Assembly (NCBI RefSeq): GCF_963921235.1
Contig: NC_086097.1
Span: forward strand, 7,316,001-7,380,000
Origin: Mobula hypostoma
Lineage: Eukaryota
Reading direction: 5' to 3'
Length of the DNA: 64,000 nucleotides
The translations under genes and the position numbers were made by a program. A model generated the notes under the pieces. That model had not been told where the DNA came from, searched no databases, and saw only the letters and a program-made list of their open reading frames with translations. Each line of letters begins with the position of its first letter. The stretch's first letter is position 1. Below are positions 5,925 to 63,850 of the stretch, piece after piece.

Positions 5925-6305
5925 TAATTTTCCCCCTTACCTCTTCTCTTCTCCTTACCATGGTGCCCCCTCTCCCTCCCTTTCTCTCATCATCCACTTT
6001 CCTCTCCTATCAGATTCCTTCTTCACAGACCCTTTACTTTTTCCAGCTATCACCTGCCAGCCTCTTACTTCAAATCCCCACCCCTCCCCAGCCACCTTTC
6101 TGGCAGCTTGTACTCCTTCCCCTTCCCTTCACCTTCTTGTTCTCGCTTCTTCTCCCCCTTCCCTTCTAGTCCTGATGTAAGGTCTCACCCTGAAACAATG
6201 ACTATTTATTCCTCTCCATAGATACTGCCTGACCTGCTGAGTTCCTCCAGCATTTTGTGTGTGTGTTGCTCTGGATTTCCAACATCTGCAGAATATCTTA
6301 TGCCT
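5925..6305 (+). mobile_element. Penelope-like element terminal (pLTR) fragment with degenerate hammerhead
   Basis: Pyrimidine-rich tract, then TAGTC-CTGATGTA...GAAAC-AAT-GACTA, then the shared 3' block. Colinear with 63480-63850. Confidence 0.75.
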
Positions 6306-14229: not shown

Positions 14230-14514
14230 GTGAGCAATACACACAAAATGCTGGACCAACTCAGCAGGCTAGGCAGCATCTATGGAAAAAAGTACAGTCG
14301 ATGTTTTGGCCTGATTTATAATTTAAATTTTTAATATTTACTAATTTTAACTATTTTTAATATCTTTAATATTTAATATTTGTAATCCAGGGAGTGTGGT
14401 GCAGAATCAAATATCGCTGTGATGATTGTACATTCTAGTACCAATTGTTTGGCGACAATAAAGTATAAAGTACAAAGTAAAGATTTCCAGCATCTGCAGA
14501 TTTTCTCTTGTTTG
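14230..14514. mobile_element. Fold-back Penelope-derived insertion, interrupted by a LINE 3' tail
   Basis: Inverted arm at 14234-14313 and direct 3' block at 14481-14514. TSD TGAGGAAAGA at 14220-14229 and 14515-14524. Confidence 0.7.
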
Positions 14515-22457: not shown

Positions 22458-23390
22458 ATGTATATACCTCATGTGAGATGTGGCCGTCTTAGGGGAACTC
22501 CCCGCTCCCGCAGAGTCACATCTGCCAGAAGTGCATGCTGCTGGGCGAACTGGAAGACAATGTAAGGAATCTGGAGCAGGAGCTGGATGACCTTCGACTT
22601 ATAAGGGAGAATGAGGCTGTCATAGATGAGAGCTACAGGGAGGTAGTCACACCTAGGCTGTCAGAAGCAGGTCGCTAGGTGACAGTCAGAGGGGGGAAAG
22701 TGAAGGTGAGCAGACAGGTAGTGCAGAGCACCCCTGTAGCCATTCCCCTGAATAATAATTTTACCATCCTAGATACTGTTGACGGGAACGACCGACCAGG
22801 TGTGAGCCACGGTGGCAGGGCCTCTGGCACTGAGTCTGACCCTGTGGTGCAGAAGGGTGGGATGGAGAAGAGGAGAGCTGTCGTCATTGGAGACTCTATA
22901 GTCAGGGGAGCAGACAGGAGATTTTGTGGAAGTGAGAAGGACACCCATATGGTTTGTTGCCTCCTGGGTGCCAGGGTCCGGGCTGTCTCTGACCGGGTGC
23001 ACGACATCCTGGTACGAGAGGGAAAGCAACCAGAAGTCGTGATACATGTTTGCACCAACGACATAGGCAAGAAGAGGGATGAGGTCCTGAAGTGTGAGTT
23101 TCGGGAATTAAGCAGAAGGCTGAAGAACAGGACCTCAAGGGTGGCGTTCTCAGGATTGCTGCCAGTGCTACGTGATAGTGATAGTAAGAATTGGAGGGGA
23201 TGGCAGTTGAATGCGTGGCTGAGGAGTTGGTGCAGGGAGCAGGGTTTTAGGTTTTTGGATCATTGAGATCTCTTCTGGGGAAGGTGGGACTTGTACGGAT
23301 TGGATGGGTTGCACCTGAACTCGAGGGGGAGCAATATCCTTGCAGGTAGGTTTGCCAGCATGGCTCGAGAGGGTTTAAACGAATTTGCAA
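22458..23390 (+). pseudogene. CR1 ORF1: zinc finger/coiled coil + SGNH esterase
   Basis: HICQKC...LEQELDDLRL, then VVIGDSIVRG, VIHVCTND and DGLHLN. In-frame stops near 22676 and 23264. Confidence 0.9.
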
Positions 23391-23519
23391 GGGGGATGGG
23401 ACCCAGAGCGATAGAGCAGTGAAAGAAGTGCATAGAGTAAAGCCAGATCTAACATATAGAGAGGCTTTGAGGAAAGAGAAGCAGAATAAAGGGTGTAAAG
23501 GTAGGAAGATAGAAGGGCT

Positions 23520-26304
23520 AAAGTGAGTGTACTTCAATACAAGAAGCATCAGGAACAAAGGTGATGAACTGAGAGCTTGGATACCTACATGGAATTATGA
23601 TGTAGTGGCCATTACAGAGACTTGGCTGGCACCAGGGCAGGAATGGATTCTCAATATTCCTGGATTTCAGTGCTTTAAAAGGGATAGAGAGGGTGGAAAA
23701 AGGGGAGGAAGGGTGGCATTACTGGCCAGGGATGCTATTACAGCTACAGAAAGGGTGGGTAATGTAGCAGGATCCTCTTTTGAGTCGGTATGGGTGGAAG
23801 TCAGGAACAGGAACGGAGCAGTTACACTATTGGGAGTATTCTATAGGCCCCAAGGTAGCAGCAGAGATAACGAGGAGCAGAATGGGAGGCAGATTTTGGA
23901 AAGGTGCAAAAGTAACAGGGTTGTTATCATGGGTGACTTTAACTTCCCTAATATTGATTGGCACCTGATTAGTTCCAAGGGTTTAGATGGGGCAGAGTTT
24001 GTTAAGTGAGTCCAGGATGGATTCCTGTCACAGTATGTGGACAGTCCAACTAGGGGGAATGCCATACTAGATCTAGTATTAGGTAACGAACCAGGTCAGG
24101 TCACAGATCTCTCAGTCGGTGAGCATCTGGGGGACAGTGACTACCACTCCCTGGCCTTTAGCATTATCATGGAAAAGGATAGAATCAGAGATGACAGGAA
24201 AAATTTTAATTGGGGAAGGGCAAATTATGAGGCTATACGGCTAGAACTTGCGGGTGTGAATTAGGATGATATTTTTGCAGGGAAATGTACGACGGATATG
24301 TGGTCGATGTTTAGAGATCTCTTGCGGGATGTTAGGGATAAATTTGTCCTGGTGAGGAAGATAAAGAATGGTAGGGTGAAGGAACCATGGGTGACAAGTG
24401 AGGTGGAAAATCTAGTCAGGTGGAAGAAGGCAGCATACATGAGGTTTAGGAAGCATGGATCAGATGGGTCTATTGAGGAATATAGGGTAGCAAGAAAGCA
24501 GCTTAAGAAGGGGCTGAGAAGAGCAAAAAGGGGGCATGAGAAGGCCTTGGCAAAGAGGGTAAAGGAAAACCCCAAGGTATTCTTCAATTATGTGAAGAAC
24601 AAAAGAATGACGGGAGTGAAGGTAGAACCGATTAGAGATAAAGGTGGGAAGATGTGCCTGGAGGCTGTGGAAGTGAGCGACGTCCTCAATGAATACTTCT
24701 CTTCGGTAATCACCAATGTGAGGGAACTTGATGATGGTGAGGACAATATGAGTGAGGTTGATGTTCTGGAGCATGTTTATATTAAGGGAGAGGAGGTGTT
24801 GGAGTTATTAAAATACATTAGGATAGATAAGTCCCCGGGACCAAACGGAATATTCCCCAGGCTGCTCCACGAGGCGAGGGAAGAGATGACTGAGCCACTG
24901 GCTAGGATCTTTATGTCTTCGTTGTCCACGGGAATGGTACCAGAGGATTGGAGGGAGGCGAATGTTGTCCCCTTGTTCAAAGCGGATAGTAGGGATAGTC
25001 CGGGTAATTATAGACCAGTGAGCCTTACGTCTGTGGTGGGAAAGCTGTTGGAAAAGATTCTTAGAGGTAGGACTTCTGGGCATTTAGAGAATCATGATCT
25101 GATCAGGAACAGTCAGCATGGCTTTGTGAAGGGAAGATTGTGTCTAACAAGCGTGATAGAGTTCTTTGAGGAGGTGACTAGGCATATAGATGAGGCTAGT
25201 GCAGAGAATATGATCTATATGGATTTTAGCAAGGTATTTGACAAGGTTCCACACGGTAAGCTTATTCAGAAAGTTAGAAGGCATGGGATCCAGGGAAATT
25301 TGGCCAGGTGGATTCAGAATTGGCTTGCCTGCAGAAGGCAGAGGGTCATGGTGAAGGGAGTACATTCGGATTGGAGGGTTGTGGCTAGTGGTGTCCCACA
25401 AGGATCTGTTCTGGGACCTCTACTTTTCATGATTTTTATTAATGACCTGCATGTGGGGGTAGAAGGGTGGGTTGGCAAGTTAGCAGACGACACAAAGGTT
25501 GGTGGTGTTGTATATAGTGTAGAGGATTGTCAAAGATTGCAGGGAGATATTGATAGGTTGCAGAAGTGGGCTGAGAAGTGGCAGATGTTCAACCCGGAGA
25601 AGTGTGAGATGGTACACTTTGGAAGGAGAAATTCAAAGGCAGAGTACAAAGTAAATGGCAGGATACTTAGTGTGGAGGAGCAGCGGGATCTGGGGGTACA
25701 TGTCCACAGATCCCTGAAAGTTGCCTCACAGGTGGATAGGGTAGTTAAGAAAGCTTATGGGGTGTTAGCTTTCACAAGTAGAGGAATAGAGTTTAAGAGT
25801 CGTGAGGTAATGATGCAGCTCTATAAAACTCTGGTTGGACCACACTTGGAGAACTGTGTCCAGTTCTGGTCACCTCACTATAGGAAGGATGTGGAAGCAT
25901 TGGAAAGGGTACAGAGGAGATTCACCAGGATGCTGCCTGGTTTAAAGAGTATGCATTATGATCAGAGATTAAGTTAGCTAGGGCTTTACTCTTTGGAGAG
26001 AAGGAGGATGAGAGGAGACATGATAGAGGTATACAAGATATTATAAGGAATAGATAGAGTGGATAGCCAGCGCCTCTTCCCCAGGGCACCACTGCACAAT
26101 ACAAGAGGACATGGCTTTAAGGTAAGGGGTGGGAAGTTCAAGGAGGATATTAGAGGAAGGTCTTTTACTCAGAGAGTGGTTGGTGCGTGGAATACACTGC
26201 CTGAGTCACTGGTGGAGGCAGATACACTAGTGAAATGGAAGAGACTACTAGACAGGTATATGGAGGAATTTATGGTGCGGGGTTATATGAGAGGCAAGGT
26301 TTGA
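23520..26304 (+). pseudogene. CR1 ORF2: APE endonuclease + reverse transcriptase
   Basis: AITETWL, MGDFN, KSPGPNG, YRPVSLTS, GVPQGSVLGP, LADD. Premature stops near 24007, 24262, 25975 and 26044. Confidence 0.93.
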
Positions 26305-29839: not shown

Positions 29840-32800
29840 CCATAAGACCATAAGATATAGGAACAGAATTCGGCCATTTGGTCCAGTGAGACTGCTATAC
29901 CATTTTATCATGATTGATCCAATTTTCTTCTCAGCCCCATATTCCTGCCTTTTCTATGTATCCCTTCATACCCTGACCGATCAAGAATGTATCACCTTTT
30001 GCCTTAAATATACGAAAGACTTGGCCTCCACAGCTGCCTGTGGCAAAGAATTCCACAGTTTCTCCACCCTCTTGCTAAAGAAATTTTTCCTCATCTCTGT
30101 ACTAAAAGGACGCCCCTCTATTCTGAGACTGTGTCCTCTGGTCTTAGACTCTCCCACCATGGCAACCATTCACTGCATATCCAATCAATCAAGACCTTTC
30201 AGCATTTGATAAGTTTCAATCATCTCAGCTGTCATTCCTCTGAATTCTTGCAAATACAGGCCCAGAGCCATCAAACATTCTTCATATGACAAGCCATTCA
30301 ATCCTGGAATCATTCTCTTGAAATTCCTTTGAACCCTCTCCAATTTCAACACATTATTTCTAGGATAAGGGGCCCAAACGTGCTCTGAACACTCCAAGTG
30401 AAGCCTCACCAGTGCTATATAATGCTTAAACATTATATCCCTGCTTTTATATTCCCGTCTTCTTGAAATTAATACTGACATTGCATTTGTCTTCCTCACC
30501 ACAGACTGAACCTGCAAGCTAAAATTTAGGAAATCCTGCACAAGGGCTCACAAGTCCCATTGTGTCTAAGCTTTTTTGTATTTTCTCTCCACTTAGAAAC
30601 GGTCAACCCTTTCATTTCTTTGACCAAAGCACATGACCATACACTTCCTGACAGTGTATTCCATCTGCTATTTCTTTGACCATTTTTCTAATATGTCTAA
30701 GTCCTTCTGTAGCCTCTCTACTTCCTCAGAACTACCTGTCCCTCCACCTATCTTCATATCATTGGCAAACTTTGCAACAAAGCCATCAATTCTATCTTCC
30801 AAATCATTGACATATAACATCAAAAAAATAGGTCCCAACACCGAGCCCTGTGGAACATCACTAGTCACTGGCAGCCAGCTTGAAAATGATCCCTTTGTTC
30901 CCACTTTTTGCCTCTTGCTAATCAGCCACTGTTTCATCCATGCTAGAATCTTTCTTGTAATACCATGGGCTCATAGCTTGTTAAGCAGCTTCATGTGTGA
31001 CACTATGTCAAAGGCCTTCTGCAAATTCAAGTACAGAACATCAACCAATTCTCTTTTGTTTATCCTTCTTGTTATTTATTCATAGATTTCCAACAGCTTT
31101 TTCATGCAAGATAGTCCCTTGAGGAAACCATGCTGACTGTGGCCTGTTTTATTATGTGCTTCCATGTACCCTGACATTGTCCTTAATAATTGTCTCCATC
31201 ATTGTCCCAACCACTGAGGTCAGACTAAATGGCTTATAGTTTCCTTTCTTCTGCCTCACTCCCTTCTTGAAGAGTGGAGTAACATTTGCAATGTTTCACT
31301 CTTCCGGAACCATTCCAGAATCTTCAAAGATCATAACTAATGCCTCCATAATTGCTTCAACTACCTCTTTCAAAACACTGGGGTGTACACCATCTGGTCC
31401 AGGTGACTCGTGCGTGGCCTATCAGCGGCGTCAACAGAGCTCTACCAAGAGGTATTTCTCGCAGGTTGGCGGCGGTTATTTAAAAAGGGAGCTTTGAGGG
31501 CATTTGTCCATTGTTTGGGGCCTATCAGCGGTGTCAACAGAGCTCTAGAACTAAATAAAACTGCAGAAGGGATAAGCAGAGCGGCCATTGTCGGGAGTAG
31601 AACAGTGGTTAGAGTAGAAGCGTCAGGCTTCGGCTCAAATGAGGCTTTGGCTCGGAAGAGGCGTCGGCTCTGTGTAAAGCATCTGTTAAAGTTTCCTTTT
31701 TGTTTTTTTTCCCTCTCCTACTGTACCATTTAAACAGCTGTGGTGCGTTCTTCGTACTTGACGTTGGGGAACTGGGAGATCCAGAGTCTCCCAGGGAACC
31801 ACATCTATGTGAAGTGCATCTGGCTGCATCTCCTTAAAGACCATATTAGTGATCTGGAGCAGCAAATGGATGACCTTCAGCTTGTACAGGAAAGCCAGGA
31901 TATAATTAATCACAGTTACAGGGAAGTAGTCACCCTGAAGTTGCAGGAGGTGAGTCAGGAGAAATGGAAACAGGCAGTTAGAGCAGAGCACCCCTGTGGC
32001 CATTCCCCTCAAAAACAAGTATACCACTTTGAATACTTTTGTGGGGGATGATCTCCTGGGAGAATGCCATGGCGACCGGGTTACAGGCACTGAGCATGGG
32101 TCCGTGGTGCAGAAGGGAAAGAGACAGAAGAAGGGAGCAGTGCTGATAGGGTACACAATAGCGAGGGGAACAGACATGAGAATCTGTGAATGTGAACGGG
32201 ACACCCGGATGGTATGTTGCTTCCCAGGTGCCAGGGTCAGGGATGTCTCAGATGGCATCCGCAACATTTTGGAGAGGGAGGGGAAGCAACCAGATGTTTT
32301 GGTACATATTGGTGCCAATGACATAGAAAGGAAAAGCAACGAGGTCCTGAAAAGGGAAATTAGAGAGCTAGGTAGAAAGCTGAGAAGCACGACCTCCCGG
32401 GTAGTAACTTCTGGATTGCTGCCTGTGCCACTGTCTCGTGGACAGGTTTGTTAGAGCTGTTGGGGAGGGTTAAAAGTAACTTGGCAGTGGGGTGGAAACT
32501 GGAGTGAAGGGACTCAGGATAGGGGAGATGGTAAAAAAGTAAACATAGTGTGCAGTTGGATTGTCAAGAAGGGCAGGCAGCTGATGGGACTTAGTTGCAG
32601 CCGGCAAGCTGAGTATCAAATCATTAGGGATGCAGAATCAGAAAGGATAGCAAATATGGTACTCAAGTTGTTGTATCTAAATGTGCGTAGTGTAAGAAAT
32701 AAGGTGGATGATCTTGTTGCAATATTACAGATTGCCAGGTATGATGTTGTGGCCATCACTGAATCATGGCTGAAGGATGGTTGTAGTTGGGAGCTGAATG

Positions 32801-33800
32801 TCCAAGGTTACACATTATGTTGGAGAGATGGGAAGGTAGGCAGACGGGGTAGTGTGGCTGTACTGGTAAAGAATGGCATCAAATCAGTAGAAAGATGTGA
32901 CAAAGGATCAGAAAATGTTGAATCCTTGTGGGTTGAGTTAAGAAACTGCAAGGGTAAAAGGACCCTGCTGACAGTTATACACAGGCCACCCAACAGTGGT
33001 TGGGAGGTGGACCATAGATTACAACAGGAAATAGAAATAGCGAGTCAAAAGGGCAATGTTATGGCAGTCATGAGAGATTTTAACATGCAGGTCAATTGGG
33101 AGAATCAGGTTGATAATAGATCAAGTTGATAATATGATGCTGTGACTTTATAAGGCACAGGTGAGGCCTCACCTTGAGTATTATGAACAGTTTTGGGACC
33201 CTCATCTTAGAAAATATGTGCTGACATTGGAGAGAGTCTAGAGGAAGTTCACAAGAATGATTCCAGGAAGGAAAGATTATCATAGGAGGAACATTTGATG
33301 GCCCTGGGTCTGTACTCGCTGGAATTCAGAAGGATGAGGAGGGATCTTAATGAAATCTTTTGAATGTCAATAGGCCTAGATGGAGTAGATTTGGAAAGGA
33401 TGTTTCCCATGGTGGGAGAGTCTATGACAAGAGGGCACAACCTCAGGATAGAGGGGCGCCCTTTCAAAACAGAGATGCGGAGAAATTTCTTTCACCAAAG
33501 GGTGGTGATTTTGTGGAATTTGTTGCCACATACAGCTGTGGAGGCCATGTTGTCGGGTGTGTTTAAGACAGAGATTAGTAGGTTTTTGATTGGACATGGC
33601 ATCAAGAGTTATGGGAAGAAGGCCAGGAGCTGGATTTGAGGAAGAGATTGAAAAAAAGGATCAGCCATGATTGAGTGGCAGAGCAGACTCAATGGGCCAG
33701 ATTGTCTTGTGGTCTATTGGACTTATCTACCTTCAGAGCTTTCACTTTCCAATGAACCTTCTCCCTACTAATGGTAACTTCACACCCTTCATGCCCCCTA
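29840..33800 (-). mobile_element. Decayed CR1 host copy (29840-31409, resuming 33720-33800)
   Basis: VPQGSVLGP, KFANDMKIG and an (ACCATAAG)n tail at 29840. The KSPGPD coding sequence is split by an insertion with a GACT duplication. Confidence 0.85.
31410..33719 (+). mobile_element. CR1 with both ends and a large internal deletion
   Basis: 5' UTR with a repeated GGCCTATCAGCGG.GTCAACAGAGCTCTA, then esterase ORF1 and EN (AITESWL). At about 33125 it jumps to the RT C-terminus and 3' UTR. Confidence 0.85.
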
Positions 33801-35209
33801 TCACTTATAACTTCTACTATAATGACAGCGTCTTTCACACGGATACTTTCTGACCTGTTGAATATTTTCAGCCGCATCTGCTTTGTTTTAATTTACCAGC
33901 AGTTGTTTGTTTTTTTCTGATTTTTCACTTACTGATCATTCATTTCTGTTCTCTCTTTGGATTAAATAAAACCATACGACGATAGGATGAGAATTAGGCC
34001 ATATGGCCCATCAGATGTGCTCATCCATTGCATCATGGCTGATTTATTATCCTTCTCAACCCCATTCTCCTGCCTACAACCCATAAACTTGGATGCACTG
34101 ACTAATCAAGAACCTATCAAACTTCTGCTTTAAATATACCCAAAGACCTGGCCTCCACAGCCATCTGTGAAAATGAATTCCACAGATTCACCATTCCCTG
34201 ACTAAAGAAATTCCTTCTCATAAGACATAGGAGCAAAATTAGGCCATTCAGCCCAGCGAGTCTGCTCCACCATTCCATCTTGCCTGATCCCAGATCCCAC
34301 CCAACCCCATACGTATACCTCCTCACCATGTACTTTGATGTTCTGACCAATCAGAAAACTATCAATTTTTGCTTTAAATATGCCCATGGTCTTGGCCTTC
34401 ACTGCAGTCTGTGGCACAACATTCCACAGATTCATTACTCTCTGGGTTAAAAATTCCTCCTTCCTTCCATTCTAAAGGGATGTTCCTCAATTTTGAGGCT
34501 GTGCCCTCTGGTTCTGGATACTCCCACCATAGAAACATCCTCTCCATATCCACCCTATCTAGTCCTTACAGCATTTGGTAGGTTTCTATGAGATCCCCCA
34601 ACATTCTTCTAAATTCCAGTGAGTACAGGCCTAAAGCAGCCAAACTTTCCTCACATGTTAACCCCTTCGTTCCCAGGATCAAGCTCGTGAATCTCCTCAG
34701 GACTCTCACCAGAATCATCCTCATGAACCCCCTATACTCTCTCCAATGACAACACATCCTTTCTGAGATATCGGGCCCAAAACTGTTGACAATATTCCAA
34801 GTGCGGCTTGACTAGTGTCAAGGCTCAGCATGATCTAATTGCTTCTATATTCCATTCCCCTTGAAGTGAATGACAACATTGCATTTGCCTTCTTTACCAC
34901 ACACTCAACCTGTAAATTAACCTTCTGGGAGTTGAGCACAAGGACGTCTGAGTCCCTTTGCACCTCAGATGTTTGAACCTTCTCCCCTTTTGGATAATAG
35001 TCTGCACTGTTGTTCCTTATACCAAAATGCATTATCCTCAGCACTATCTACTCCTCCACCTTTCTTCATATCGTCCGCAAACTTTGCCACAAAGCCATCA
35101 ATTCCATCACCGAAAGCATTGATAAACAATGTGAGAAGTAGCAGACCAAATTCTGACCCCCTGAGGAACACCATTAGTCACTGGCAGCCAACCAGAAAAG
35201 GCTCACTTT

Positions 35210-35657
35210 AATGCTCCTCCTCCCCTTCACACCCCATCCCTTATTTATTTATTTGTTTATTTATTTATTTATTTTATATATATTTCCCCCTTTTTTTCTC
35301 TCTCTCTTTTTTCTCTCTCTGTCCCTCTCACTATAACTCCTTGCCTGCTCTCCACCCACCGGGCTCCCCTCCCCACTTCTCTTTCTCCCCAGGCTTCCTG
35401 TCCCATGATCCTCTCCCTCCTCCAGCTCTTAGATCCACCCCGCCCCTACTGTCTTCTCCTATCATTTCGGATCTCCCCCACCCCTTCCCACTTACAAATC
35501 TCTTACTATCTCTTCTTTCAGTTAGTCCTGATGAAGGGTCTCGGCCTGAAACGTCGACTGTACCTTTTCCTATAGATGCTGCCTGGCCTGATGCGTTCAC
35601 CAGCATTTTTTGTGTCTGTTGCATGAATTTCCAGCATCTGCAGATTTCCTCGTGTCT
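35210..35657 (+). mobile_element. Penelope-derived pLTR insertion within CR1
   Basis: Pyrimidine tract, hammerhead and 3' block; closely similar to the reverse complement of 59838-60246. Confidence 0.85.
35523..35560 (+). ncRNA. Minimal type I hammerhead ribozyme, intact core
   Basis: TAGTC-CTGATGA-AGGGTCTCGGCCT-GAAA-CG-TC/GACTG. Stem I is TAGTC:GACTG, stem II is a hairpin, and palindromic ACGT replaces stem III. Predicted cut after C35555. Confidence 0.8.
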
Positions 35658-36471
35658 GAGTCACTTTATTCTCACTCGTTGCCTCCTGCCTGTTAGCTAT
35701 TCCTCTATCTATTCCAGTATCTTTTCCTGTAACGTGATTGTTAAACAACTTCATATGTGGCACCTTATCAAATGCCTTTTGAAAAAACAAGTAAATGACA
35801 TCCACTGCCTCTCCTTTGTCCACCCTGCTTGTTACTTCCTCAAAGAACTCTAACTGATTTGTCAGGCAAGATTTCTCTTCACAGAAACTATACTAACTTT
35901 GACTTTAATTTATCATTTGTGTTCAAGTACCTCAAAATATCTTTCTTAATAATGGACTCCAAATCTTTCCCATCTCTGTTCTAAATATACATCCGTTTAT
36001 TCTGAGGGTATGTCCCCTGGTCCCAGACTCCTCAGCTATCGGAAGCACCCACTCTATCCTAGGCCTGACTGAAATTGAAGGGAAAGCACTGATAGAGGGA
36101 AAAACAAAATAACAATTGATTCAGGAGGTTGAATTTTTATTTTAAATATTTTAAAGAAGCTCCCATTGCTTTTCTTTATTTGGTCTCATGTTCTGAACTT
36201 TAAAAGAATGTGCACATTGCTGCCAATTTTGGAGTTTACCATCAATCATTTTTTGGCCCCCAGGTTTTTCTTGATGCCTGATGTAATTTCTGAGTTTTGA
36301 TGGACATCTTGGCCAAACTGGGTAAAGACAACAGATTTCATTCCTTGAAAATTACCAGAGGGCATGCATTTAAGGTGTGATGTGTCGGGCAAGTTTTTCA
36401 TTTTGTTTGTTTACTTAGAAACACAGCGTGGAACAGACCCTACCAGCCCAGCAAATCACAGTACCCAGTTA

Positions 36472-40597: not shown

Positions 40598-42095
40598 CGG
40601 GAGACGAGAGGAGAAGATGGCGGTGCACCTGCGTGTGTGCAGCTCCCCAATGAAAATTGATATCGTATCTGTTAAATAGGGGCCGTGGACAATTCTGATT
40701 TGATGGAGAATGGACGTCAAAGGGGATAGGTTGGGTGAGTGGGCAAACTCATGGCAGATGCAATTTAATGTGGATAAATGTGAAGTTATCCACTTTGGTG
40801 GCAAAAATAGGAAAACAGATTATTATCTGAATGGTGGCCGATTAGGAAAAGGGGAGGTGCAACGAGACCTGGGTGTCATTATACACCAGTCATTGAAAGT
40901 GGGCATGCAGGTACAGCAGGCGGTGAAAAAGGCGAACGGTATGCTGGCATTTATAGCGAGAGGATTCGAGTACAGGAGCAGGGAGGTACTACTGCAGTTG
41001 TACAAGGCCTTGGTGAGACCACACCTGGAGTATTGTGTGCAGTTTTGGTCCCCTAATCTGAGGAAAGACATCTTTGCCATAGAGGGAGTACAAAGAAGGT
41101 TCACCAGATTGATTCCTGGGATGGCAGGTCTTTCATATGAAGAAAGACTGGATGAACTGGGCTTGTACTCGTTGGAATTTAGAAGATTGAGGGGGGATCT
41201 GATTGAAACGTATAAGATCCTAAAGGGATTGGACAGGCTAGATGCGGGAAGATTGTTCCCGATGTTGGGGAGGTCCAGAACGAGGGGTCATAGTTTGAGG
41301 ATAGAGGGGAAGCCTTTTAGGACCGAGATTAGGAAAAACTTCTTCACACAGAGAGTGGTGAATCTGTGGAATTCTCTGCCACAGCAAACTGTTGAGGCCA
41401 GTTCATTAGCTATGTTTAAAAGGAAGTTAGATATGGCCCTTGTGGCTACAGGGGTCAGTGGGTATGGAGGGAAGGCTGGGTTCTGAGTTGGATGATCAGC
41501 CATGATCATAATAAATGGCGGTGCAGGCTCGAAGGGCCGAATGGCCTACTCCTGCACCTATTTTCTATGTTTCTATGTTTCTAAAGCACAGAGGAACATC
41601 CGGAGAAATTTCTGAAACGCCCGTTCGCTGCTGTCGTTACTGTGTGGTCGGAAATCTTTTGGAGGGTAGGCCTCAAAATCCCCGGCCTTGCTTGCTTTTG
41701 GCAACCGAGAAGGAGGTCGAATCGCTCGGACAGAGATGGCGCTCAGTACTCGGTGTTGGAGAGCTGATCAGAGCTCGAAGTTTTCGGATGAATCAGAGTC
41801 GGACTGTGGTCGGCATGGCAGGGAGATTTTTTTCTTCCTTCTCCTGTCTGTGTGAGATGTGGGACATTTGAGAAACTTTGAACTTTACTGTGCTCACTGA
41901 CTTCTTCATCAAGTTATGGTATTGTTACACTGTTTGTAACTATATGTTATAATTATGTGGTTTTGTCAGTTTTTTCAGTCTTGGTTTGTCCTGTGTTTTG
42001 CGATATCACACCGGAGGAAATAATATATCATTTCTTAATGCATGCATTACTAAATGACAATAAAAGAGGACTACATGTCTTCATAATCATATCAT
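40598..42095 (+). mobile_element. CpG-rich non-autonomous LINE-derived element (~630 bp excluding the nested CR1)
   Basis: AAGATGGCGG near the 5' end, AATAAA and an ATCAT-type tail. AAGG duplicated at 40594-40597 and 42096-42099. Confidence 0.6.
40723..41582 (+). mobile_element. Young 5'-truncated CR1 with uninterrupted RT C-terminal frame
   Basis: Open frame to the stop at 41486, (TTTCTATG)n tail, AAAG at 40719-40722 and 41583-41586. Confidence 0.92.
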
Positions 42096-42835
42096 AAGGG
42101 TCCCGGCCCTAAACATCGACTGTTTTTTTTCTGTGGTTCTGTCTGGCCTGCTGCATTCCACCAGCATTCTGTGGATATTAAACCTGATTCTGATTCAGAG
42201 TCAGATTTGGATTCCTTCCTCTCTGGTCCCTCATGTCAATCTGGGGAATTCTAGAGATGAATTTCCAGCAACAAGTTCTATGCGGTACGTTAGGAAGGCC
42301 AGAGTAGAAACGTCAGTCATCTTCAGGAAACAAACTGACAGAAACAGTATCAGTCAAACTGTCATGATTTGCAGGCATTCTATATTCCCATTTAATGTAC
42401 GTAACATTACCCTATCACATCCCCTGGCAGGTACTGCACCGATGGAACTGCTGAGCTTTTGCTATCTTTGTTTCAGATTCCAAGCCATTGTGGGTTTCTT
42501 TCTTGTTCATTACAGTGCTTGCCTAGTCCTCTGGGAGCAAATGCAAGTCCTGGCACTCTTCCCATGGAATTTCCGCACTCGGGCAGATTCTGTAAACAAA
42601 ATCTCCCATAGTTTTCAGATTGCAGGAAGATGTCTTTTGTCATTTGAACCTAAATCGGACACTGTGGGAAGTAAGAACAAGATATATCAGAGCATGGTAA
42701 TTGTTCACAATTATTTACATTTTGGAAAATGCTTCCTTGCATTAACATTTATATTTCATATTTTTTTGAGAAGTCTGAAAAATTAAAATGATCAGTTCAA
42801 GTTATTCCCTGAGGCCGTAAAGGGGGAATAATGAT

Positions 42836-44258: not shown

Positions 44259-44323
44259 TCAAGGAGCTCCTATAGATGGAGGACATAAAAAAGGGAAGAA
44301 TAAACTAAACATGTTGACAGATT

Positions 44324-44493
44324 AACACATACAAAATGCTGGAGGAATGCAGCAGGTCAGGCAGCATCTATGGAAATGAATAAACAGTTAACAGTTGACT
44401 GTTTATTCATTTCTATAGATGCTGTCTGACCAGTTGAGTTCCTCCAGCATTTTATGTGTGTTGCTCTGGATTTCAAGCATCTGCAGAATCTCT
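44324..44493. mobile_element. Fold-back (palindromic) Penelope-derived insertion
   Basis: 69-bp inverted arms at 44324-44392 and 44394-44462. Flanking direct repeat TGTTGACAGATT at 44312-44323 and 44494-44505. Confidence 0.85.
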
Positions 44494-44940
44494 TGTTGAC
44501 AGATTGGTGGGTGATTTTGTGAGATTTGGGAAGATTGAAAAGAATATTATTTTGTGACTGACTGTGTGTCTCGAACTTGACCTGTCAGTGCTTGAGTCTC
44601 GAAATAGGTGACGGGAAGAGGAAAAAGTGGCAAAGCATTCTGTTCCCCAGCTCTGCAATCCATCACTTTGATAAGTGTGCTCATAAAGACAAAACACCAA
44701 CTAAGACATCTGAGCTGATACAGGATAAAACACCTTATTGCACTTTCGATGACAATTCTGTCTGAGTGGTCATACACTTCACTTCAGCTATGTTGTGCCC
44801 ACGGCTAGACATCTTTCAAAGGATTGTAGAATTCCTTTAAGAATGGCAATTTTGATTCAACTTCCACAAATCATGCCAAGCCGAGCACAGGCTTCCAAGA
44901 AGGTTGAGTGCACCTTGTCACAATAAATAATTTGGAGGTA

Positions 44941-45075
44941 AAGCCCTGTCGAATGGTCTCGCCCCAAAACATCGAGTGTATTATCTTTCCACAGAAGCTG
45001 CCTGGCCTGCTGAGTTCCTCCAGCAATTTGTGTTCATTGCTCAGATTTCCAGCATCTGCAGATTTTCTCTTGTTC
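44941..45075 (+). mobile_element. Short Penelope-derived insertion, degenerate hammerhead
   Basis: Shared 3' block; TSD GAGGTA at 44935-44940 and 45076-45081. Confidence 0.75.
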
Positions 45076-45391: not shown

Positions 45392-45543
45392 AACTCTTCC
45401 TTCAGTTAGTCCTGACAAAGGGTCTCGGCCTGAAACGTCGACTGCACCTCTTCCTACAGATGCTGCTTGGCCTGCTGCGTTCACCAGCAACTTTGATGTA
45501 TGTTGCTTGAATTTCCAGCATCTGCAGAATTCCTGTTGTTTGC
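45392..45543 (+). mobile_element. Short Penelope-derived insertion with hammerhead (45407-45444, core CTGACAA)
   Basis: TSD GTTTATAT at 45384-45391 and 45544-45551. All stems intact, one core substitution. Confidence 0.85.
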
Positions 45544-45819
45544 GTTTATATGGTCGGATTGCTTTTATGGTATTTTTCCTGCCATACACAGAAAAATATT
45601 CCATTTCTTTAGTAATGGGAATGGGTAAATGTGTATATGTTTTTTGTATACTGTATTTGAGTTAGATGCTTCTGCTTGTTTTGTAATTTGATTGTAATTA
45701 CATTGTGGGGTGCATCATACTGTGATTCATGTGTAGTCTAAGATAACTATGATGTTAATTAAAGATGGTATGTCCTGATGTGTGAGAAAAGGAGCCGATC
45801 ACCCTTAGTCAGGAAGAAA

Positions 45820-53266: not shown

Positions 53267-53269
<3 letters not shown>

Positions 53270-53313
<44 letters not shown>

Positions 53314-53438: not shown

Positions 53439-53484
<46 letters not shown>

Positions 53485-55730: not shown

Positions 55731-56180
55731 TCATAGAACATAAAACATAGAAGTTTACAGCACATTACAGGCCCTTCAGCTCACAATGTTCTGCTAACCG
55801 TGCAACAACTCTAGAAACCCTCCAGCAGGACTTGAAACGGCCGGAAACGTCAACTGTGCTTTTTCCCATAGATGCTGCCTGGCCCATTTCGTTCCTTCAG
55901 CAGTTTGTGTGTGTTGCTCGGATTTCCAGCATCTGCAGATTTTCCCTTGTTTGTGACAGAAATAAAGTAGTCATTTGCTAGATTTTCTCCACAATCATGT
56001 TGCTTTATGATTGCAATAAAGTGTCACTTTATGGACATACAATCAATCTATGCATAGGAGCTATCTTATGCACCACTCCCATCAGAGAGAAGGCTACATA
56101 GTATCCACACTGGGATTACCAAACTCAAAAACAGTTACTTTCCCAAAGCAGTAAGGCTGATCAACACACCCACCTATTAA

Positions 56181-58874: not shown

Positions 58875-59020
58875 CACACAGAAAATGCTGGCGGAATTCA
58901 GCAGGTCGGGCAAGTCTATAAAAATGAATAAACACTCATCGTTTCGGGCCGAGACCATTCATGGCGACTGGTCAGGATGGTGGAGAAAGCCAGACTAAGA
59001 AGGTGGAAGAAGGGGAAAAA
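58875..59020 (-). mobile_element. Penelope-derived pLTR fragment, degenerate hammerhead
   Basis: Reverse complement of GGTCTCGGCCCGAAACG plus the shared 3' block. Confidence 0.7.
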
Positions 59021-62000
59021 GGAGCAGGGATCAGGGATTCAGATTTCTGGATAAATATGACCTCTTCTAGGGCAGGTGGGATCTGTACAAAAGGGACAGA
59101 TTGCACTTGAATCTAAGGGGGACCAATATTCTTGTGAGCAGGTTTACTAGAGCTGGTGGGAGTGGTTTAAACTAATATGTCAGGGAGATGGGAACCAGTA
59201 TGATAGAGCTGAGGATAAGCCAGCAGGTTTACAAGTCGAGGATGAGTGTAACATCAATGTCAGGAAGGACAACCCAATGACTGAGCACAAATGCAGACAG
59301 CGCGAAGAGATAAATTGTACCATGGATGCAAAGTTCAAAAGGGCAAAGAATGCAGGTCTGAAGGTGCTGTACTTAAATGCGTGTAGCATTTGGAATAAGG
59401 TGGACGAACTTGTGGTGTAATTAGAGATTGGTCAGTATGACGTTGTGCACATCACTGAATCTTGGCTGAAAGAAGGCCGTAGTTGGGAGCTTAACATCAA
59501 AGGATATAATTTGTATCGAAAGGACGGGCAGGAAGGCACAAGCAGTGGTGTGGCTCTGTTGGTAAGAGATGGACTTACATCTCTATAAAGAGGTGACATA
59601 GGGTCAGAGAATGTTGAATCTTTGTGGGTGGAGTGAAGAATTTGCAAGGGTGAAAAAACCATTATGGGAATCATATCTAGGCCTCCAAATAATAGCCAAG
59701 ATGTAGGGTTTAAATTGCAAAGGGAGCTGGAAAAAGCATGTAATAGGGTAATGACACAACTGTAATGGGGACTTGAATATGAAGGGGAATTGGGAAAAAT
59801 CGGATTGGTGTTGGATCGCAAAAGAGGGAATTTGTTGCAGCACACACAAAATGCTGGTGGAACGTAGCAGGCCAGGCAGCATCTATAGGAAGAAGTACAG
59901 TCGACGTTTCGGACCTAGACCCTTCGTCGGGACTAACTGAAAGCAGAGATAGTAAGAGATTTGAAAGTGGGAGGGGGAGAGGGAGATCAGAAATGATAGG
60001 AGAAGACAGGAGGGGGAGGGATGGAGCTAAGAGCTGGACAGGTGATTGGCAAAAGGGATACAGTGCTGTAGAAGGGAGAGGATCATGGGACGGGAGGCCA
60101 AGGGGGAAAGAAAGGGGGAGGGGAGCCCAGACGAAGATGGAGATCAAGCAAGGAGTTATAGTGAGAGGGACAGAGGGAGAGAAAAAAGGGGAAAAAATAA
60201 AAAATAGTAAATAAATAAATAAGGGATAGAGTAAGAAGGGGAGGAACCTACAAGATGGCTTTTTAGAGCAGCCTGTGCATGAGCCTACGTAGGGAAAGGC
60301 TATCTTAGATTGGTGTTGTGTAATTACCCAGATCTTATTAGGGAGCTTACTCAGAAGGAATGTTTAGGAGGCAGTGTTCATGATATGATTGAATTCACAC
60401 TGCAGTGTGAGAGGGAGAAGCATAACTCACATCAATCAGTGTTAGAATGGAATAAAAGGAATTACAGAGGCATGACAGAGGAACTTGTCCAAGTGGATTA
60501 GAGAAGGACACTGCCGAGTGTGACAGCAGAGCAGAGCTGGCCGGAGTTTCTGGGAATAGTTCATAAAGAGCAGAACAGATATGTCCACAGAGGAAGAAGT
60601 TCTCAAATGGCAGGGGCAGGCAACCATGGCTGGCAAGAGAAGTTAAGGATAGCATAAAAACCAAGGAAAGGGCATATAAGGTAGCAAAAGTGAGTGGGAA
60701 GTTAGATGATTGGGAAGTTTTAAAAATTCAACAAAAGGCAACTGAAAAAATAATAAGAAAGGAAAAGATAAAATATGAGGGCACACTAGCCAATAAAATG
60801 AAGCAGGACACCAAAAGATTTTTCAGTTATATAAAGAGTAAAAGAGAGGTGGGAGTTGATGTTGAACCACTGGAAAATGATGCTGGTGAGGTAGTAATGG
60901 GGGATAAAGATGAACTTAATGGGTACTTTGCATCTGTCTTCAGCATGGAAGACACCAGCAGTGTGTCATCAGTGTCCGAGAGCTGGAATGAGTGAAATTG
61001 GAAAAAGTGACAGTTAACTCAAAGATCTTAAGCTGGATAAGTCACCTGGACCAGTCGGACTACATCCCAGAATCCTGAAAGAGATTGCTGAAGCGATAAC
61101 GATGCTTTGGTCATGAATTTTCAAGAATCAATTGATTCTGGCATGGTCCTGGAGGACTGGAAAATTGCAAATGTCACTCCACTCTTTAAGAAGGGAGGAA
61201 GTCAAAAGGAAGGAAATTATAGGCTACTTAAGCTAACCTCAATGGTTGGAAAGTGTTGAAGTCTATTATTTAGGGTGAGGTTTTGGGGTACTTGGAAAAT
61301 AATGATAAAATAAGTCAAAGTCAGCATGGTTTATGTGAAGGGAAATGTTGCCTGACAAATCTGTTAGAGTTCTTTGAGGAAGTAACAAGCAATCTGAACA
61401 AAGAAGAGGGAGTGGATGTCATTTACTTGGATTTCAGAAGGCATTTGATAAAGTGCTACACATGAGGCTGCTTAAGAAGATAAAATCCTATGACATTACA
61501 GGAACAATACTGGCATGGATTGAGGAAAGTCTGACAGTCAGGAGGGAGCAAGCGGGAATAAAAGGGGCCTTTTCTAGTTGGCTGTCAATGGCTATTAGTG
61601 TTCCTTAGGGGTCATATTGGGACTGCTATTTTTCACATTATTTGTCAATGATTGGGATAATGAAATTGATGGCTTTGTGGCAAAGTTTGCAGATGATACG
61701 AAGATAGGTGGAGAGTTAGATAGTGCTGAGCAAGCAATGCAGTTGCAGCAGGACTTGGACAAATTGGAAGAATGGGTAAAAAAGTGGCAGATGGAATACA
61801 GTGTTGGGAAATGTATGATAATGTATTTTGTTAAAAGGAACAATGGTGCAGGCTATTATCTAGATGGGGAGAAGGCTCAAACATCAGAGGTGCAGTGGGA
61901 CTTAGGAGTCCTCATGCAAGACTTCCAGGAGGTTAACTTACAAGTTGAGTCTGTGGTAAAGAAGGCAAATACAATGTTGGCATTTATTTCAAGGGGAGTA

Positions 62001-62689: not shown

Positions 62690-63850
62690 TAATTCTTGAC
62701 TGTGTCTCTTCCCACTCTGTCTCTTATAAAAGTGCTATTCCGTTTTCTCAGTTCCACCGTCTCCGCCGCATCTATTCCCAACATGAGTTTTCCTCTCCAG
62801 AACATCAGGGATGTCCTCCTTCTTTAAATCGGGGTTTCCCTTCATTCACCATTTTTGCTGCCCTCACTCACGTCTCCTCTATTTCCTGGACATCCGTGCT
62901 CAGCCCATCTTCCTGCTGACTAACAGTGATCAAGTTTACCACCTTTGTATCCAATATGTCATTTCCACAGCTTCTACCATCTACAAAGAGATATTACTAC
63001 CAAACGCATCTTTACCTCCCCCACTTCCCACCTACTGCACATTTTCAGCAGGGACTGCTGCTTCCGTCATTCCCTTGTCCATTCATCCCTCCCCACTAAT
63101 CTCCTTTCCAGCAATTATCCCTGCCAACAGCCAAAGTGCCATATCTGCTCATTCACCTCCTTCCTCACCTCCATTCAGGATCCCAAGCAGTCCTTCCCGG
63201 TAAGGCAACACTTCCCTGCGAATTTGCTGGAGTCATCTATTGTATCTGGTGCTCTCGATGCAACCTTCTCTACACTGGTGAGAAATTGTCCAGTACCTAT
63301 GCTCCATTCAATAAAAGCAGAATTTCCTGGTAGACAACCATTTTGATCCTATTCCTATTCCCATTGTAAAATGTCAGTCCGTGGCCTCCTCTCGTGCCAC
63401 TCTCAGAGTGGAGGAGCAACACATCATATTCCCTCTGGATAGCCTCCAGCCTAATGGCATGACCATCAATTTCTCCTTCAGGTGAAAATATTTTTTCCTC
63501 CCTCTTCCCCACTCTGGCTCCTTACCTCTTCTCCTCACCTGCCTATTTCCTCTTCCTGGTGCCCCTCCTTCTTCCTAGCCCATTCTCCTCTCCTATCAGA
63601 TTCTTCCTTCCCCACCCCTTTATCTTTCCCACCCTCCCAGCTTCATCCATCTCCTTCTAATGATCCTCCTTTCCTTCCATTCCTTTTTATTCTGGCATAT
63701 TCCCACTTCCTTTTCAGTCCTGATGAAGGGTCCTGGCCTGAAAAGTCAACTGTTAATTAACTTCTGCAGATGCTGCTCAACCTGCTGAGTTCCTACAGCA
63801 TTTTGTGTGTATTGCTTTAGATTTCCACTATCTGTAGATTTCCAGTGTCT
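62690..63850 (+). mobile_element. Penelope-like element (Neptune-type) 3' part: RT thumb, Cys linker, GIY-YIG endonuclease, pLTR with hammerhead
   Basis: KSAIPFSQFHRLRRIYS, PCQQPKCHIC, CEFAGVIYCIWCSRCNLLYTGE; frameshifted. Followed by a pyrimidine tract and CAGTC-CTGATGA...GAAA at 63715-63752. Confidence 0.88.

What the first reader, a model, noticed from the sequence alone, without database searches (positions are those of the whole stretch)
35523..35560. Dispersed family of hammerhead-ribozyme mini-retroelements, with the parent Penelope element in the same window
Seen in sequence: the motif YAGTC-CTGAYGA-AGGGTCTCGGCC(C/T)-GAAACGTC-GACTG, or decayed versions, occurs at 6167, 35523, 40588/42096 (split), 44945, 45407, about 55840, about 58935(-), 59898(-) and 63715. 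It is always followed by the same ~110-bp 3' block. Stem I ends vary but still pair (TAGTC:GACTA at 6167, TAGTC:GACTG at 35523). At 63715 the unit lies directly downstream of a GIY-YIG Penelope ORF. Copies of 135-152 bp have their own TSDs and begin just upstream of the ribozyme. Established: Penelope-like elements carry minimal hammerheads with a palindromic stem III that cleave as dimers. Inference: this is a high-copy, ribozyme-headed, Penelope-mobilised short element, at roughly one copy per 6 kb here; a transcript crossing sense copies could self-cleave. The ribozyme class is known; whether this family is described I cannot tell.
Basis: partly seen in the sequence, partly recalled or inferred. 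Interest (0 to 1): 0.75.

Follow-up and report, generated by a model that had tools for sequence, protein, structure and literature searches.

The report
Truncated Penelope-element tails carrying minimal hammerheads
The short repeats headed by a hammerhead ribozyme motif are real and hugely abundant, but they are the usual dead-on-arrival tail ends of a young Penelope-like jumping gene, a known kind of element, rather than a separate family of mini-elements.

Summary
The motif at 35523-35560 is a complete minimal type-I hammerhead with no helix III loop and an ACGU palindrome. About 12 related copies lie in the window. Genome-wide, the 33-nt motif has 101,181 matches at up to 2 mismatches, against 0 for the reversed control.

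It is not a separate mini-element. The hammerhead lies about 300 nt after the GIY-YIG endonuclease stop and 166 nt before the next ORF's ATG, in a tandem (pseudo-LTR) Penelope-like element of Neptune type. The "110-bp block" runs from the hammerhead to two 3'-end sites, about +95 and +135, which match the published Penelope "tail" signature.

In 70 block-anchored copies the 5' ends range from +46 to beyond -1100, so they form a truncation series. Of these, 29 of 70 abut an inverted copy.

Three further results:
- About 17-24% of hammerhead-bearing copies start at -4 to -2.
- There is no pile-up at the cleavage site.
- In 39 of 39 fold-back pairs, one arm ends at each 3' site.

Cleavage was not tested. 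The kind is known, and this scan reached the same verdict on other shark-type genomes.

The parts
35523..35560 (+). Intact minimal type-I hammerhead. Helix I 5' strand 35523-35527 (TAGTC); core CUGAUGA 35528-35534; bulged A plus helix II/loop 35535-35547; GAAAC 35548-35552; GUC 35553-35555, with the predicted cut after C35555; helix I 3' strand 35556-35560 (GACTG). Helix III is only the ACGU palindrome.
   Evidence: the helix II pairing GGGU/GCCU and helix I also appear in the MFE fold
35208..35674 (+). The whole insertion that holds the intact hammerhead: a 5'-truncated 3' end of the Penelope-like element, about -320 to +146. It comprises the 3' UTR, hammerhead, block and tail.
   Evidence: L006 is this copy: up to 320 nt shared upstream, 146 downstream; 35292-35661 against the reference
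6167..6294 (+). Short decayed copy, -5..+118 (older block subfamily), core mutated
14233..14306 (-). Copy truncated inside the ribozyme, +21..+95
14483..14514 (+). Tail-only fragment, +99..+130
42096..42166 (+). Copy starting at +6 (decayed). The supposed other half at about 40588 is only an 11-13-nt match.
44314..44505. Fold-back (head-to-head) insertion. The inverted arm is 44325-44375 (blast +39..+89, ends at 3' site 1). The forward arm is 44410-44498 (blast +39..+126, ends at 3' site 2). Read by eye from the sequence printed, the arms begin further in, about +26 to +30, near the cleavage site. The pair is flanked by one 10-bp target duplication, TTGACAGATT.
44942..45074 (+). Short decayed copy starting at -4 (-4..+128)
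45393..45551 (+). Young short copy, -19..+139, 95-97% identical to the reference. The core carries G8>A (CTGACAA). Candidate 8-nt target duplication GTTTATAT.
55838..55953 (+). Copy truncated inside the ribozyme, +14..+130
58876..58962 (-). Decayed copy
59837..60244 (-). 5'-truncated copy, -296..+94; core U4>C
62694..63846 (+). Old 5'-truncated Penelope-like fragment. 62694-63475 is the endonuclease-coding remnant (CQQPKCHIC ... VIYCIWCSRCNLLYTGEK, spread over three frames). Then comes the 3' UTR, and 63698-63846 holds the decayed hammerhead plus block.

Best explanation
The motif is the minimal, helix-III-less hammerhead that canonical Penelope-like elements (PLEs) carry in their pseudo-LTR. 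Here it belongs to a very abundant, young, Neptune-like PLE family in what earlier notes call a cartilaginous-fish genome.

Layout, shown by the sequence. In the element the hammerhead lies about 300 nt after the stop of the RT/GIY-YIG ORF and 166 nt before the ATG of the next unit. It therefore marks the unit junction of a tandem or pseudo-LTR transcript.

Origin of the short copies, inferred from the copies and from published in vitro work. New copies are made by target-primed reverse transcription. Synthesis starts inside the RNA at one of two sites, about +95 and +135, downstream of the hammerhead, and runs towards the 5' end. Most copies stop early, and half of the sampled copies end within about 40 nt of the hammerhead. 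About 40% are joined head-to-head to a second truncated copy inside a single target duplication. The dispersed 'mini-elements' are therefore dead-on-arrival by-products of the autonomous element, not a lineage of their own.

The hammerhead itself. Its presumed job is to cut multimeric or read-through transcripts at the unit junction, as a dimer or with help from the element's protein. That is inferred from the literature and was not tested here. The copies show that the RNAs used as templates were uncut at this site.

The class starting at -4 to -2. This discrete class is most simply read as run-off at an RNA 5' end. That would be a transcription start inside TTAGTCC, which fits the initiator consensus as I recall it. 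I put this at about 35% likely; no call tested it.
For: Motif anatomy.

Abundance:
- The 33-nt hammerhead at up to 2 mismatches gives 50,625 + 50,556 matches, reversed control 0.
- The 33-nt block anchor gives 71,235 + 70,923 matches, control 0.
- A 278-aa RT/linker fragment gives 139,256 first-look candidates. All 139 scored were 96-100% identical without stops, with open frames up to 1,102 aa.

Link to the PLE:
- Long copies read RYIDDC ... CKRNKCYTC ... GVIYCVRCSRCGLLYIGETRRRLGDRFAEH, then a stop about 300 nt before the hammerhead.
- Pfam GIY-YIG scores E 1.9e-4.
- L120 shows, in order, endonuclease end, UTR, hammerhead, block, tail and ATG at +166.

Truncation series in 70 block-anchored copies:
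- 34 of 70 have 5' ends at -40 or further upstream; 23 of these reach -302 or beyond, into the ORF.
- 36 of 70 have 5' ends between -32 and +46.

3' ends: 45 of 70 fall at +84..+105, 25 of 70 at +128..+141, and none between.

Fold-backs:
- 29 of 70 and 20 of 48 copies abut an inverted arm.
- 20 of the 21 short fold-backs have one 9-17-bp duplication around the pair.
- 39 of 39 evaluable pairs have one arm ending at each 3' site.

Core conservation: 0 of 310 cells vary at 10 non-CpG core positions in 31 copies, against a minor-allele fraction of 0.04-0.07 in the flanks.

Depth: the hammerhead plus block is about 500 times deeper than the ORF start in contigs of four runs.

Published matches:
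- Minimal hammerheads in pLTRs, with solo motifs 'probably related to truncated PLEs' (PMC4209133, main text read).
- Two internal RT start sites and the 30-40-bp tail (PMC11167929, main text read).
- 5' truncation, an adjacent inverted copy, and a tail at one end as standard PLE features (PMC8557442, passages).
Against: - No Rfam hammerhead model matches. The whole window at gathering threshold gave 0 hits. Region 35450-35700 at E up to 10 gave only three unrelated weak hits. I recall that those models require a helix III hairpin, which would explain the miss.
- Self-cleavage was not tested, and thermodynamic folding does not single out the catalytic fold.
- Covariation could not be tested. 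The 362-kb sample holds essentially one hammerhead sequence.
- The RT was seen only from its YIDD motif onward. No complete element was read, and Pfam GIY-YIG is just under its cut-off (22.1 against 22.6 bits).
- The 5'-end hotspot at -4 to -2 (24% of 76,317 copies) is not what simple random truncation predicts. It leaves room for a partly separate origin of that class.
Confidence: 0.88

Rival explanations
1. A true non-autonomous lineage. On this view, short hammerhead-headed units (SINE-like, or monomers of non-LTR retrozymes) have their own source copies and are transcribed on their own. The Penelope-like element's enzymes mobilise them in trans.
For: - There is a sharp 5'-end hotspot at -4/-3/-2. 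First-non-consensus counts are 8,089 / 6,375 / 3,671, against 1,813 and 1,593 at -5 and -6.
- 7 of 20 ends in -35..0 (HHR-anchored sample) and 4 of 36 ends (block-anchored sample) fall exactly at -3.
- These copies are mostly simple insertions: 1 of 11 is a fold-back, against 48 of 107 for the rest, p = 0.025.
- One tandem array has a 327-bp period and a mini copy in each unit (L121).
- A 2026 preprint argues that animal retrozymes are non-autonomous PLE derivatives and reports them in its one chondrichthyan (10.64898/2026.07.22.740005, abstract and Results read).
Against: - The short copies hold nothing that the autonomous element lacks.
- They share its two 3'-end sites and its block variants.
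- 5' ends on both sides of the hotspot form a continuum.
- The hotspot class is a minority, 17-24%.
- The L121 array repeats host flank along with the copy. It looks like a local duplication rather than a retrozyme unit.
Confidence: 0.09
2. The copy at 35523 is a working host ribozyme. On this view an intact hammerhead has been retained by selection at this locus, for instance to cut a host transcript.
For: It is the only one of 7 full-span window copies with an intact core.
Against: - The genome holds tens of thousands of exact copies (66,271 exact 23-mers), so an intact one here is expected from age alone.
- Minimal hammerheads are reported to be inactive as monomers (PMC4209133, text read).
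- No gene context or expression evidence was obtained.
Confidence: 0.02
3. It is a chance resemblance to a hammerhead within an unrelated repeat.
For: No Rfam hit.
Against: - All the defining sequence features are present.
- It sits in a PLE pseudo-LTR, exactly as published.
- Core positions are invariant while the flanks vary.
- The reversed-pattern control gives 0 matches against 101,181.
Confidence: 0.01

Closest known systems
Minimal hammerheads (min-HHR) in the pseudo-LTRs of metazoan Penelope-like elements (Cervera and De la Pena 2014, PMC4209133; main text read, supplements not seen)
   Same: - CUGANGA ... GAAA core.
- An extra nucleotide after A9.
- A G10.1-C11.1 pair (in the C variant).
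- A short helix I.
- No helix III loop, with a palindromic 15.2-16.2.
- Location in the pLTR.
- Most genomic motifs are solo pieces of truncated elements.
   Different: - Scale. Here there are 101,181 near-exact motifs of one sequence family. That paper reports about 4,000 in coelacanth and 9,000 in Xenopus.
- That paper stresses extreme sequence heterogeneity within a genome. This family is nearly uniform, like its D. virilis exception.
- No cartilaginous fish is named in its main text.
Poseidon element PAc of Anolis carolinensis: internal initiation of reverse transcription (Frangieh et al. 2024, PMC11167929; main text read)
   Same: - The hammerhead lies at the pLTR-ORF junction.
- Copies end at two adjacent internal sites 30-40 nt apart, the 'tail'.
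- Uncut RNA is the template.
- Both DNA strands can prime, which fits the fold-back copies.
   Different: - In PAc the ORF starts inside the hammerhead and the RT start sites lie 111-118 nt into the ORF. Here both sites lie in the 5' UTR and the ATG is at +166.
- This element has the CX4CX2C linker of the Neptune/Nematis clades, which Penelope/Poseidon lack (PMC8557442, passages).
- In vitro, no strand difference in start site was seen. Here each fold-back uses one of each site, 39 of 39.
General PLE insertion architecture (Craig, Yushenova, Rodriguez, Arkhipova 2021, PMC8557442; passages read)
   Same: - A high degree of 5' truncation.
- Partial tandems forming pLTRs.
- An inverted 5'-truncated copy adjacent at the 5' end.
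- A 30-40-bp tail, often at one end only.
- A hammerhead in the pLTR of canonical clades.
   Different: The copy number here exceeds the roughly 37,000 quoted there as exceptional for Naiads. That paper describes the tail rule qualitatively; here it is counted.
Non-LTR retrozymes and SINE-like hammerhead elements: Cervera and de la Pena 2020 (PMC7229834; abstract start seen in a search listing), Li et al. 2026 preprint (abstract and Results read), and Schistosoma SINE-like elements as described in PMC6765202 (passages)
   Same: They are short, non-coding units bearing a type-I hammerhead, and are thought to depend on PLE enzymes.
   Different: Retrozymes are tandem arrays whose RNA is cut at both ends and circularised. 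The copies here are dispersed solos or inverted pairs with target duplications and PLE 3'-end signatures. Only one tandem array was seen (L121).

Membership tests
Minimal hammerhead of Penelope-like elements | Catalytic core CUGANGA ... GAAA, with a cleavable NUH triplet | tested here: met
   CUGAUGA ... GAAAC GUC at 35528-35555. Most young genomic copies read CUGACGA.
Minimal hammerhead of Penelope-like elements | Type-I topology: helix I closed by the two ends (4-5 bp), and a helix II hairpin with an extra nucleotide after A9 and a G10.1-C11.1 pair | tested here: met
   UAGUC pairs with GACUG (5 pairs, one of them U-G). A bulged A is followed by GGGU/GCCY with loop CUCG. Position 11.1 is C in 43% and U in 57% of 31 copies, so the majority form has a G-U pair there.
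Minimal hammerhead of Penelope-like elements | No helix III loop; palindromic 15.2-16.2, so that two copies can build helix III together | tested here: met
   The sequence reads GAA-ACGU-C.
Minimal hammerhead of Penelope-like elements | Lies in the pseudo-LTR of a Penelope-like element | tested here: met
   L120 shows endonuclease stop at -301, hammerhead at 0, and next ORF ATG at +166.
Minimal hammerhead of Penelope-like elements | Compensatory changes in helices I and II across variants | tested here: inconclusive
   Only one sequence family was found in 362 kb. Variants are single decayed copies. The U-G to U-A change at 6167 is one-sided.
Minimal hammerhead of Penelope-like elements | Self-cleavage after C17, as a dimer or with the element's protein | not testable with these tools
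   No listed run is on record as RNA. Contigs cannot show RNA ends.
Rfam hammerhead families | Match to a curated covariance model | tested here: not met
   0 hits at gathering score, and no hammerhead hit at E up to 10 in 35450-35700. I recall that these models include a helix III hairpin, which this motif lacks.
Canonical endonuclease-positive Penelope-like element, Neptune-like | One ORF with the RT followed by a C-terminal GIY-YIG endonuclease that bears the CCHH cysteines between GIY and YIG | tested here: met
   RYIDDC ... VIYCVRCSRCGLLYIGET ... EH is in one frame in L056 and L078. Pfam GIY-YIG gives E 1.9e-4, 22.1 bits against a 22.6 cut-off. The RT upstream of YIDD was not read.
Canonical endonuclease-positive Penelope-like element, Neptune-like | CX2-5CxxC linker motif before the endonuclease (Neptune/Nematis, absent in Penelope/Poseidon) | tested here: met
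   CKRNKCYTC in the long copies and CQQPKCHIC in the window remnant. The criterion comes from PMC8557442 passages.
Canonical endonuclease-positive Penelope-like element, Neptune-like | Insertion signature: 5' truncation, partial tandem, adjacent inverted copy, 30-40-bp tail | tested here: met
Canonical endonuclease-positive Penelope-like element, Neptune-like | RT groups with PLE and telomerase RTs in a tree | not tested
SINE-like or retrozyme-like non-autonomous element | A unit with its own defined 5' end and sequence not shared with the autonomous partner, or tandem units cut at both ends | tested here: not met
   The 5' ends are continuous and no private sequence exists. A hotspot class does exist at -4 to -2, and one 327-bp tandem array was seen.

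The most novel reading that the evidence does not exclude
The more than 100,000 dead copies in this genome act as a fossil record that constrains how Penelope-like elements copy themselves. Three readings follow.

(a) Every fold-back insertion has one arm starting at the first 3' site and the other arm starting at the second, 39 of 39. Both arms would then be laid down in a single event from two neighbouring start sites. One option is that the two halves of a dimeric enzyme each prime from one of the two cut DNA strands. The other is that a hairpin intermediate is cut at a fixed offset.

(b) About a fifth of hammerhead-bearing copies begin at -4 to -2. That would fit a transcription start inside helix I. 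The element's mRNA would then begin with the ribozyme, and reverse transcription starting at the 5'-UTR copy of the start site would run off after 100-145 nt. The element would spawn SINE-like mini copies as a built-in by-product.

(c) Copies do not pile up at the cleavage site, so cut RNAs are not used as templates.
Probability: 0.3. Interest if true: 0.55.

Novelty: new member of a known kind. Interest (0 to 1): 0.35.

Why it matters
- Annotation. A genome with about 100,000 near-perfect hammerhead motifs will yield many false 'intronic ribozyme' calls unless they are recognised as tails of Penelope-like elements.
- Mechanism. The copies are numerous and young enough to read mechanistic rules at single-nucleotide resolution: two 3' start sites, one of each per fold-back, a 5' hotspot, and no pile-up at the cleavage site. 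Until now these rules rest on one in vitro system, an Anolis Poseidon element.
- The ribozyme's role. It bears on the open question of what the hammerhead does for these elements. Here the inserted copies come from uncut RNA.

Tried and rejected
- Rfam. The whole window at gathering score gave 0 hits. Region 35450-35700 at E up to 10 gave no hammerhead hit.
- Thermodynamic folding of monomer and dimer. The MFE keeps helix I and helix II but pairs GAUG with CGUC, and the dimer MFE is an extended duplex. This argues neither for nor against the catalytic fold.
- Covariation. It is untestable because the sample holds one sequence family.
- RNA evidence. No RNA holder was listed. The four runs laid were contigs of unknown kind, so they give no RNA ends.
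- A hairpin between the two 3' sites. z = -0.48, so no support.
- Spliced copies. The splice-acceptor-like run before helix I would predict an excess of copies starting at -6. The count there is at baseline (1,593).
- A Drosophila-type downstream promoter element after the putative start. Judged by eye on the sequence against the RGACGTGY element quoted in PMC2377424. No convincing match at the right distance, so I dropped it.
- Reading a complete element.
- The Lunse, Weinberg and Breaker paper on dimer cleavage is not held. I saw it only as a reference and as summarised in PMC6765202.
- The '40588/42096 split copy'. It rests on an 11-13-nt match only.
- Print search for this shark family. 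Searches found no description. Penelope is merely listed among whale-shark repeats (PMC8455134, one passage). Repbase and Dfam could not be consulted, so the family may well be catalogued there.

Full report
**Observation.** One search shows that 35523-35560 reads TAGTC CTGATGA AGGGTCTCGGCCT GAAAC GTC GACTG. That is a type-I hammerhead layout. It has a 5-bp helix I (UAGUC:GACUG), the CUGAUGA and GAAA core boxes, a helix II hairpin (bulged A, GGGU/GCCU, loop CUCG) and a GUC cleavage triplet. Helix III has no loop; the four letters ACGU are a palindrome. The 25-nt core pattern has 4 window matches at up to 3 mismatches and none in 100 shuffles. Of the 7 window copies that span the whole ribozyme, only 35523 keeps all core residues. 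The 'split' copy at 40588/42096 rests on an 11-13-nt match.

**Scale.** The window lies in a 3.48-Gb assembly. Earlier notes of this scan call it a cartilaginous fish; I did not test that.
- The 33-nt hammerhead has 50,625 forward and 50,556 reverse matches at up to 2 mismatches. The reversed-pattern control has none.
- A 33-nt anchor in the downstream block has 142,158 matches, control 0.

**What the unit belongs to.** I took 48 loci around exact hammerheads and 70 loci around exact block anchors.
- Long copies continue upstream into one reading frame that runs RYIDDC ... CKRNKCYTC ... GVIYCVRCSRCGLLYIGETRRRLGDRFAEH and stops about 300 nt before the hammerhead. Pfam GIY-YIG scores E 1.9e-4, 22.1 bits, just under its 22.6 cut-off.
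- The two cysteines between GIY and YIG, together with the CX2-5CxxC linker, are the marks of canonical endonuclease-positive Penelope-like elements of the Neptune/Nematis type (PMC8557442, passages).
- A 278-aa piece of this ORF finds 139,256 first-look candidates in the genome. All 139 scored were 96-100% identical without stops. Open frames reached 1,102 aa, with 1,043 aa recurring. The family is therefore young and may still be active.
- The 1-kb stretch just upstream of one 1,043-aa frame (L120) reads, in order: endonuclease end (stop at -301), UTR, hammerhead (0), block, tail, and the ORF's first ATG at +166.

This is the tandem, pseudo-LTR layout described for Penelope-like elements.

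**What the short copies are.** In the 70 block-anchored copies the 5' ends form a series.
- 34 of 70 lie at -40 or further upstream. Of these, 23 reach -302 or beyond, into the ORF, and six are cut by the locus edge, so those are lower bounds.
- 36 of 70 lie between -32 and +46.
- The 3' ends fall into two clusters, 45 of 70 at +84..+105 and 25 of 70 at +128..+141, with none between.

This matches the two adjacent internal reverse-transcription start sites and the optional 30-40-bp 'tail' shown in vitro for the Anolis Poseidon element (PMC11167929, main text read).

29 of 70 copies (one flag is a 35-nt match and probably spurious) and 20 of 48 copies abut an inverted, 5'-truncated arm. In 20 of the 21 short fold-backs, a single 9-17-bp duplication flanks the whole pair. 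Each pair is therefore one insertion event. The window has its own example at 44314-44505 with TTGACAGATT on both sides.

High 5' truncation, partial tandems, an adjacent inverted copy and a tail at one end are all listed as standard features of these elements (PMC8557442, passages). Cervera and De la Pena already noted that most genomic minimal hammerheads are solo motifs 'probably related to truncated PLEs' (PMC4209133, main text read).

Contigs of four public runs from four coded organisms give about 500 times more summed depth over the hammerhead plus block than over the ORF start. That is what massive 5' truncation predicts. These runs are contigs of unknown kind and say nothing about expression.

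**Is the hammerhead under constraint?** Among 31 young copies that extend at least 100 nt upstream, the 10 non-CpG core positions show no variant in 310 cells. The flanks have mean minor-allele fractions of 0.04-0.07. Position 11.1 is split, U 57% and C 43%. Covariation could not be assessed because the sample holds one sequence family. Rfam finds nothing, and folding is uninformative. Cleavage itself was not tested.

**Three quantitative points beyond the standard picture.**

*First, a 5'-end hotspot.* In the hammerhead-anchored sample, 7 of the 20 ends between -35 and 0 lie exactly at -3 (binomial p = 7e-7). In the independent block-anchored sample, 4 of 36 ends do (p = 0.001). Genome-wide, I counted exact matches in which the first base upstream is not the consensus base.

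| Inferred start | Copies |
|---|---|
| -6 | 1,593 |
| -5 | 1,813 |
| -4 | 8,089 |
| -3 | 6,375 |
| -2 | 3,671 |

For comparison, 66,271 copies carry the consensus A at -4. The base before -3 starts is T 36, C 32, G 32 in the 100 places listed. That looks like random flank, not point mutation. These three positions make up 24% of 76,317 copies, or 17% above the neighbouring baseline. The -3 class is rarely a fold-back: 1 of 11, against 48 of 107 for the rest (p = 0.025). Contigs from three other coded organisms also break at this position (loose ends at 592/593 of L120).

My preferred reading is run-off at an RNA 5' end. TTAGTCC fits the initiator consensus YYANWYY as I recall it, with A at -4. 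In D. virilis, Penelope has a TATA-less internal promoter and its start site in the pLTR (PMC2377424, passages). Reverse transcription starting at the 5'-UTR copy of the start site would then give units of 100-145 nt. No RNA data support this reading yet.

*Second, no pile-up at the cleavage site.* 0 of 70 sampled copies start at +28; the nearest start at +25 and +29. Genome-wide transversion proxies give 397 for a start at +27, 1,065 for +28 and 930 for +29. RNAs cut by the hammerhead were therefore not a favoured template. This agrees with the in vitro finding that uncut RNA is the substrate (PMC11167929).

*Third, a strict rule in fold-backs.* In 39 of 39 evaluable pairs, one arm ends at the first 3' site and the other at the second. 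Solos use the sites 45 to 28, with 2 elsewhere, so independent choice predicts 47% mixed pairs (p = 2e-13). From that count I dropped three partner-arm duplicates, arms under 40 nt or touching a locus edge, and one pair with an unclassifiable end. [quoted passage not shown] In about 12 of the 39 pairs the inner ends lie within 10 nt of each other, by my reading of the rows. That hints at a snap-back step in some events. Two models remain open: two neighbouring start sites used by a dimeric enzyme on the two cut strands, or a hairpin intermediate cut at a fixed offset. A stable hairpin between the two sites is not predicted (z = -0.48).

**Verdict.** It is wrong in treating the short copies as an element family of their own, and in taking the decayed fragment at 62694-63846 for the parent. 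The kind is already known, and this scan reached the same verdict on other shark-type genomes (e1-7788964, e1-7788970, e1-7788743). I found no paper describing this family in sharks. Repbase and Dfam could not be checked.

Noticed in passing
L121 (G000:C1:147388350-147389250): A tandem array with a 327-bp period, 2.4 copies at 99% identity. Each unit holds a -4..+96 mini copy with an intact-looking hammerhead plus about 220 bp of non-element sequence, itself a 122-bp duplication. Three hammerheads at regular spacing give the layout needed for double cleavage, as in retrozymes. It looks more like a local duplication, though.
   Followed up: partly
L120:550-595 and the equivalent window 35482-35527: A branch-point-like CTTAC/CTCAC, a pyrimidine run and CAG lie immediately 5' of helix I, so the stretch looks like a splice acceptor. 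In D. virilis Penelope an intron ends at the 5' end of helix I (PMC4209133). Copies starting at -6 are not enriched (1,593), so spliced copies are not evident.
   Followed up: partly
window 60500-62520 (+): A LINE reverse transcriptase (Pfam RVT_1 at 61599-62117) lies directly upstream of the old Penelope fragment. Its motifs, NVTPLFKKG ... FADDTKIGG ... VNLWNALPQ, look CR1/L2-like to me from memory. The two elements are separate.
   Followed up: no
window 105-2357 (-), 7498-8121 (-), 22679-25977 (+), 32455-33129 (+): There are further LINE remnants with AP-endonuclease and RVT_1 hits. The ORF at 22679-23266 gives a marginal GDSL-lipase-like hit (32.6 against 32.9 bits) ahead of the endonuclease and RT, which would fit an esterase-type ORF1.
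   Followed up: no
window 53089-55261 (+) and 40704-42786 (+): Several open frames of 170-260 aa have no Pfam hit at E up to 1. One set lies just upstream of the truncated copy at 55838, and the other between 40588 and 42096. Their nature is unknown.
   Followed up: no
position +19 of the hammerhead (35547 in the window): The base that should pair with G10.1 is U in 57% and C in 43% of 31 young copies. Other CpG sites vary by only 6-13%. It therefore looks like two source lineages rather than decay. The copy next to a long open frame (L120) has U.
   Followed up: partly
Read laying on L120, places 628 and 592/593: In two other coded organisms, contigs match through the hammerhead and then switch to a different block right after GACTG. 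That block resembles the older window copies at 6167, 44942 and 63698. This suggests the hammerhead is shared across subfamilies whose flanks differ.
   Followed up: no
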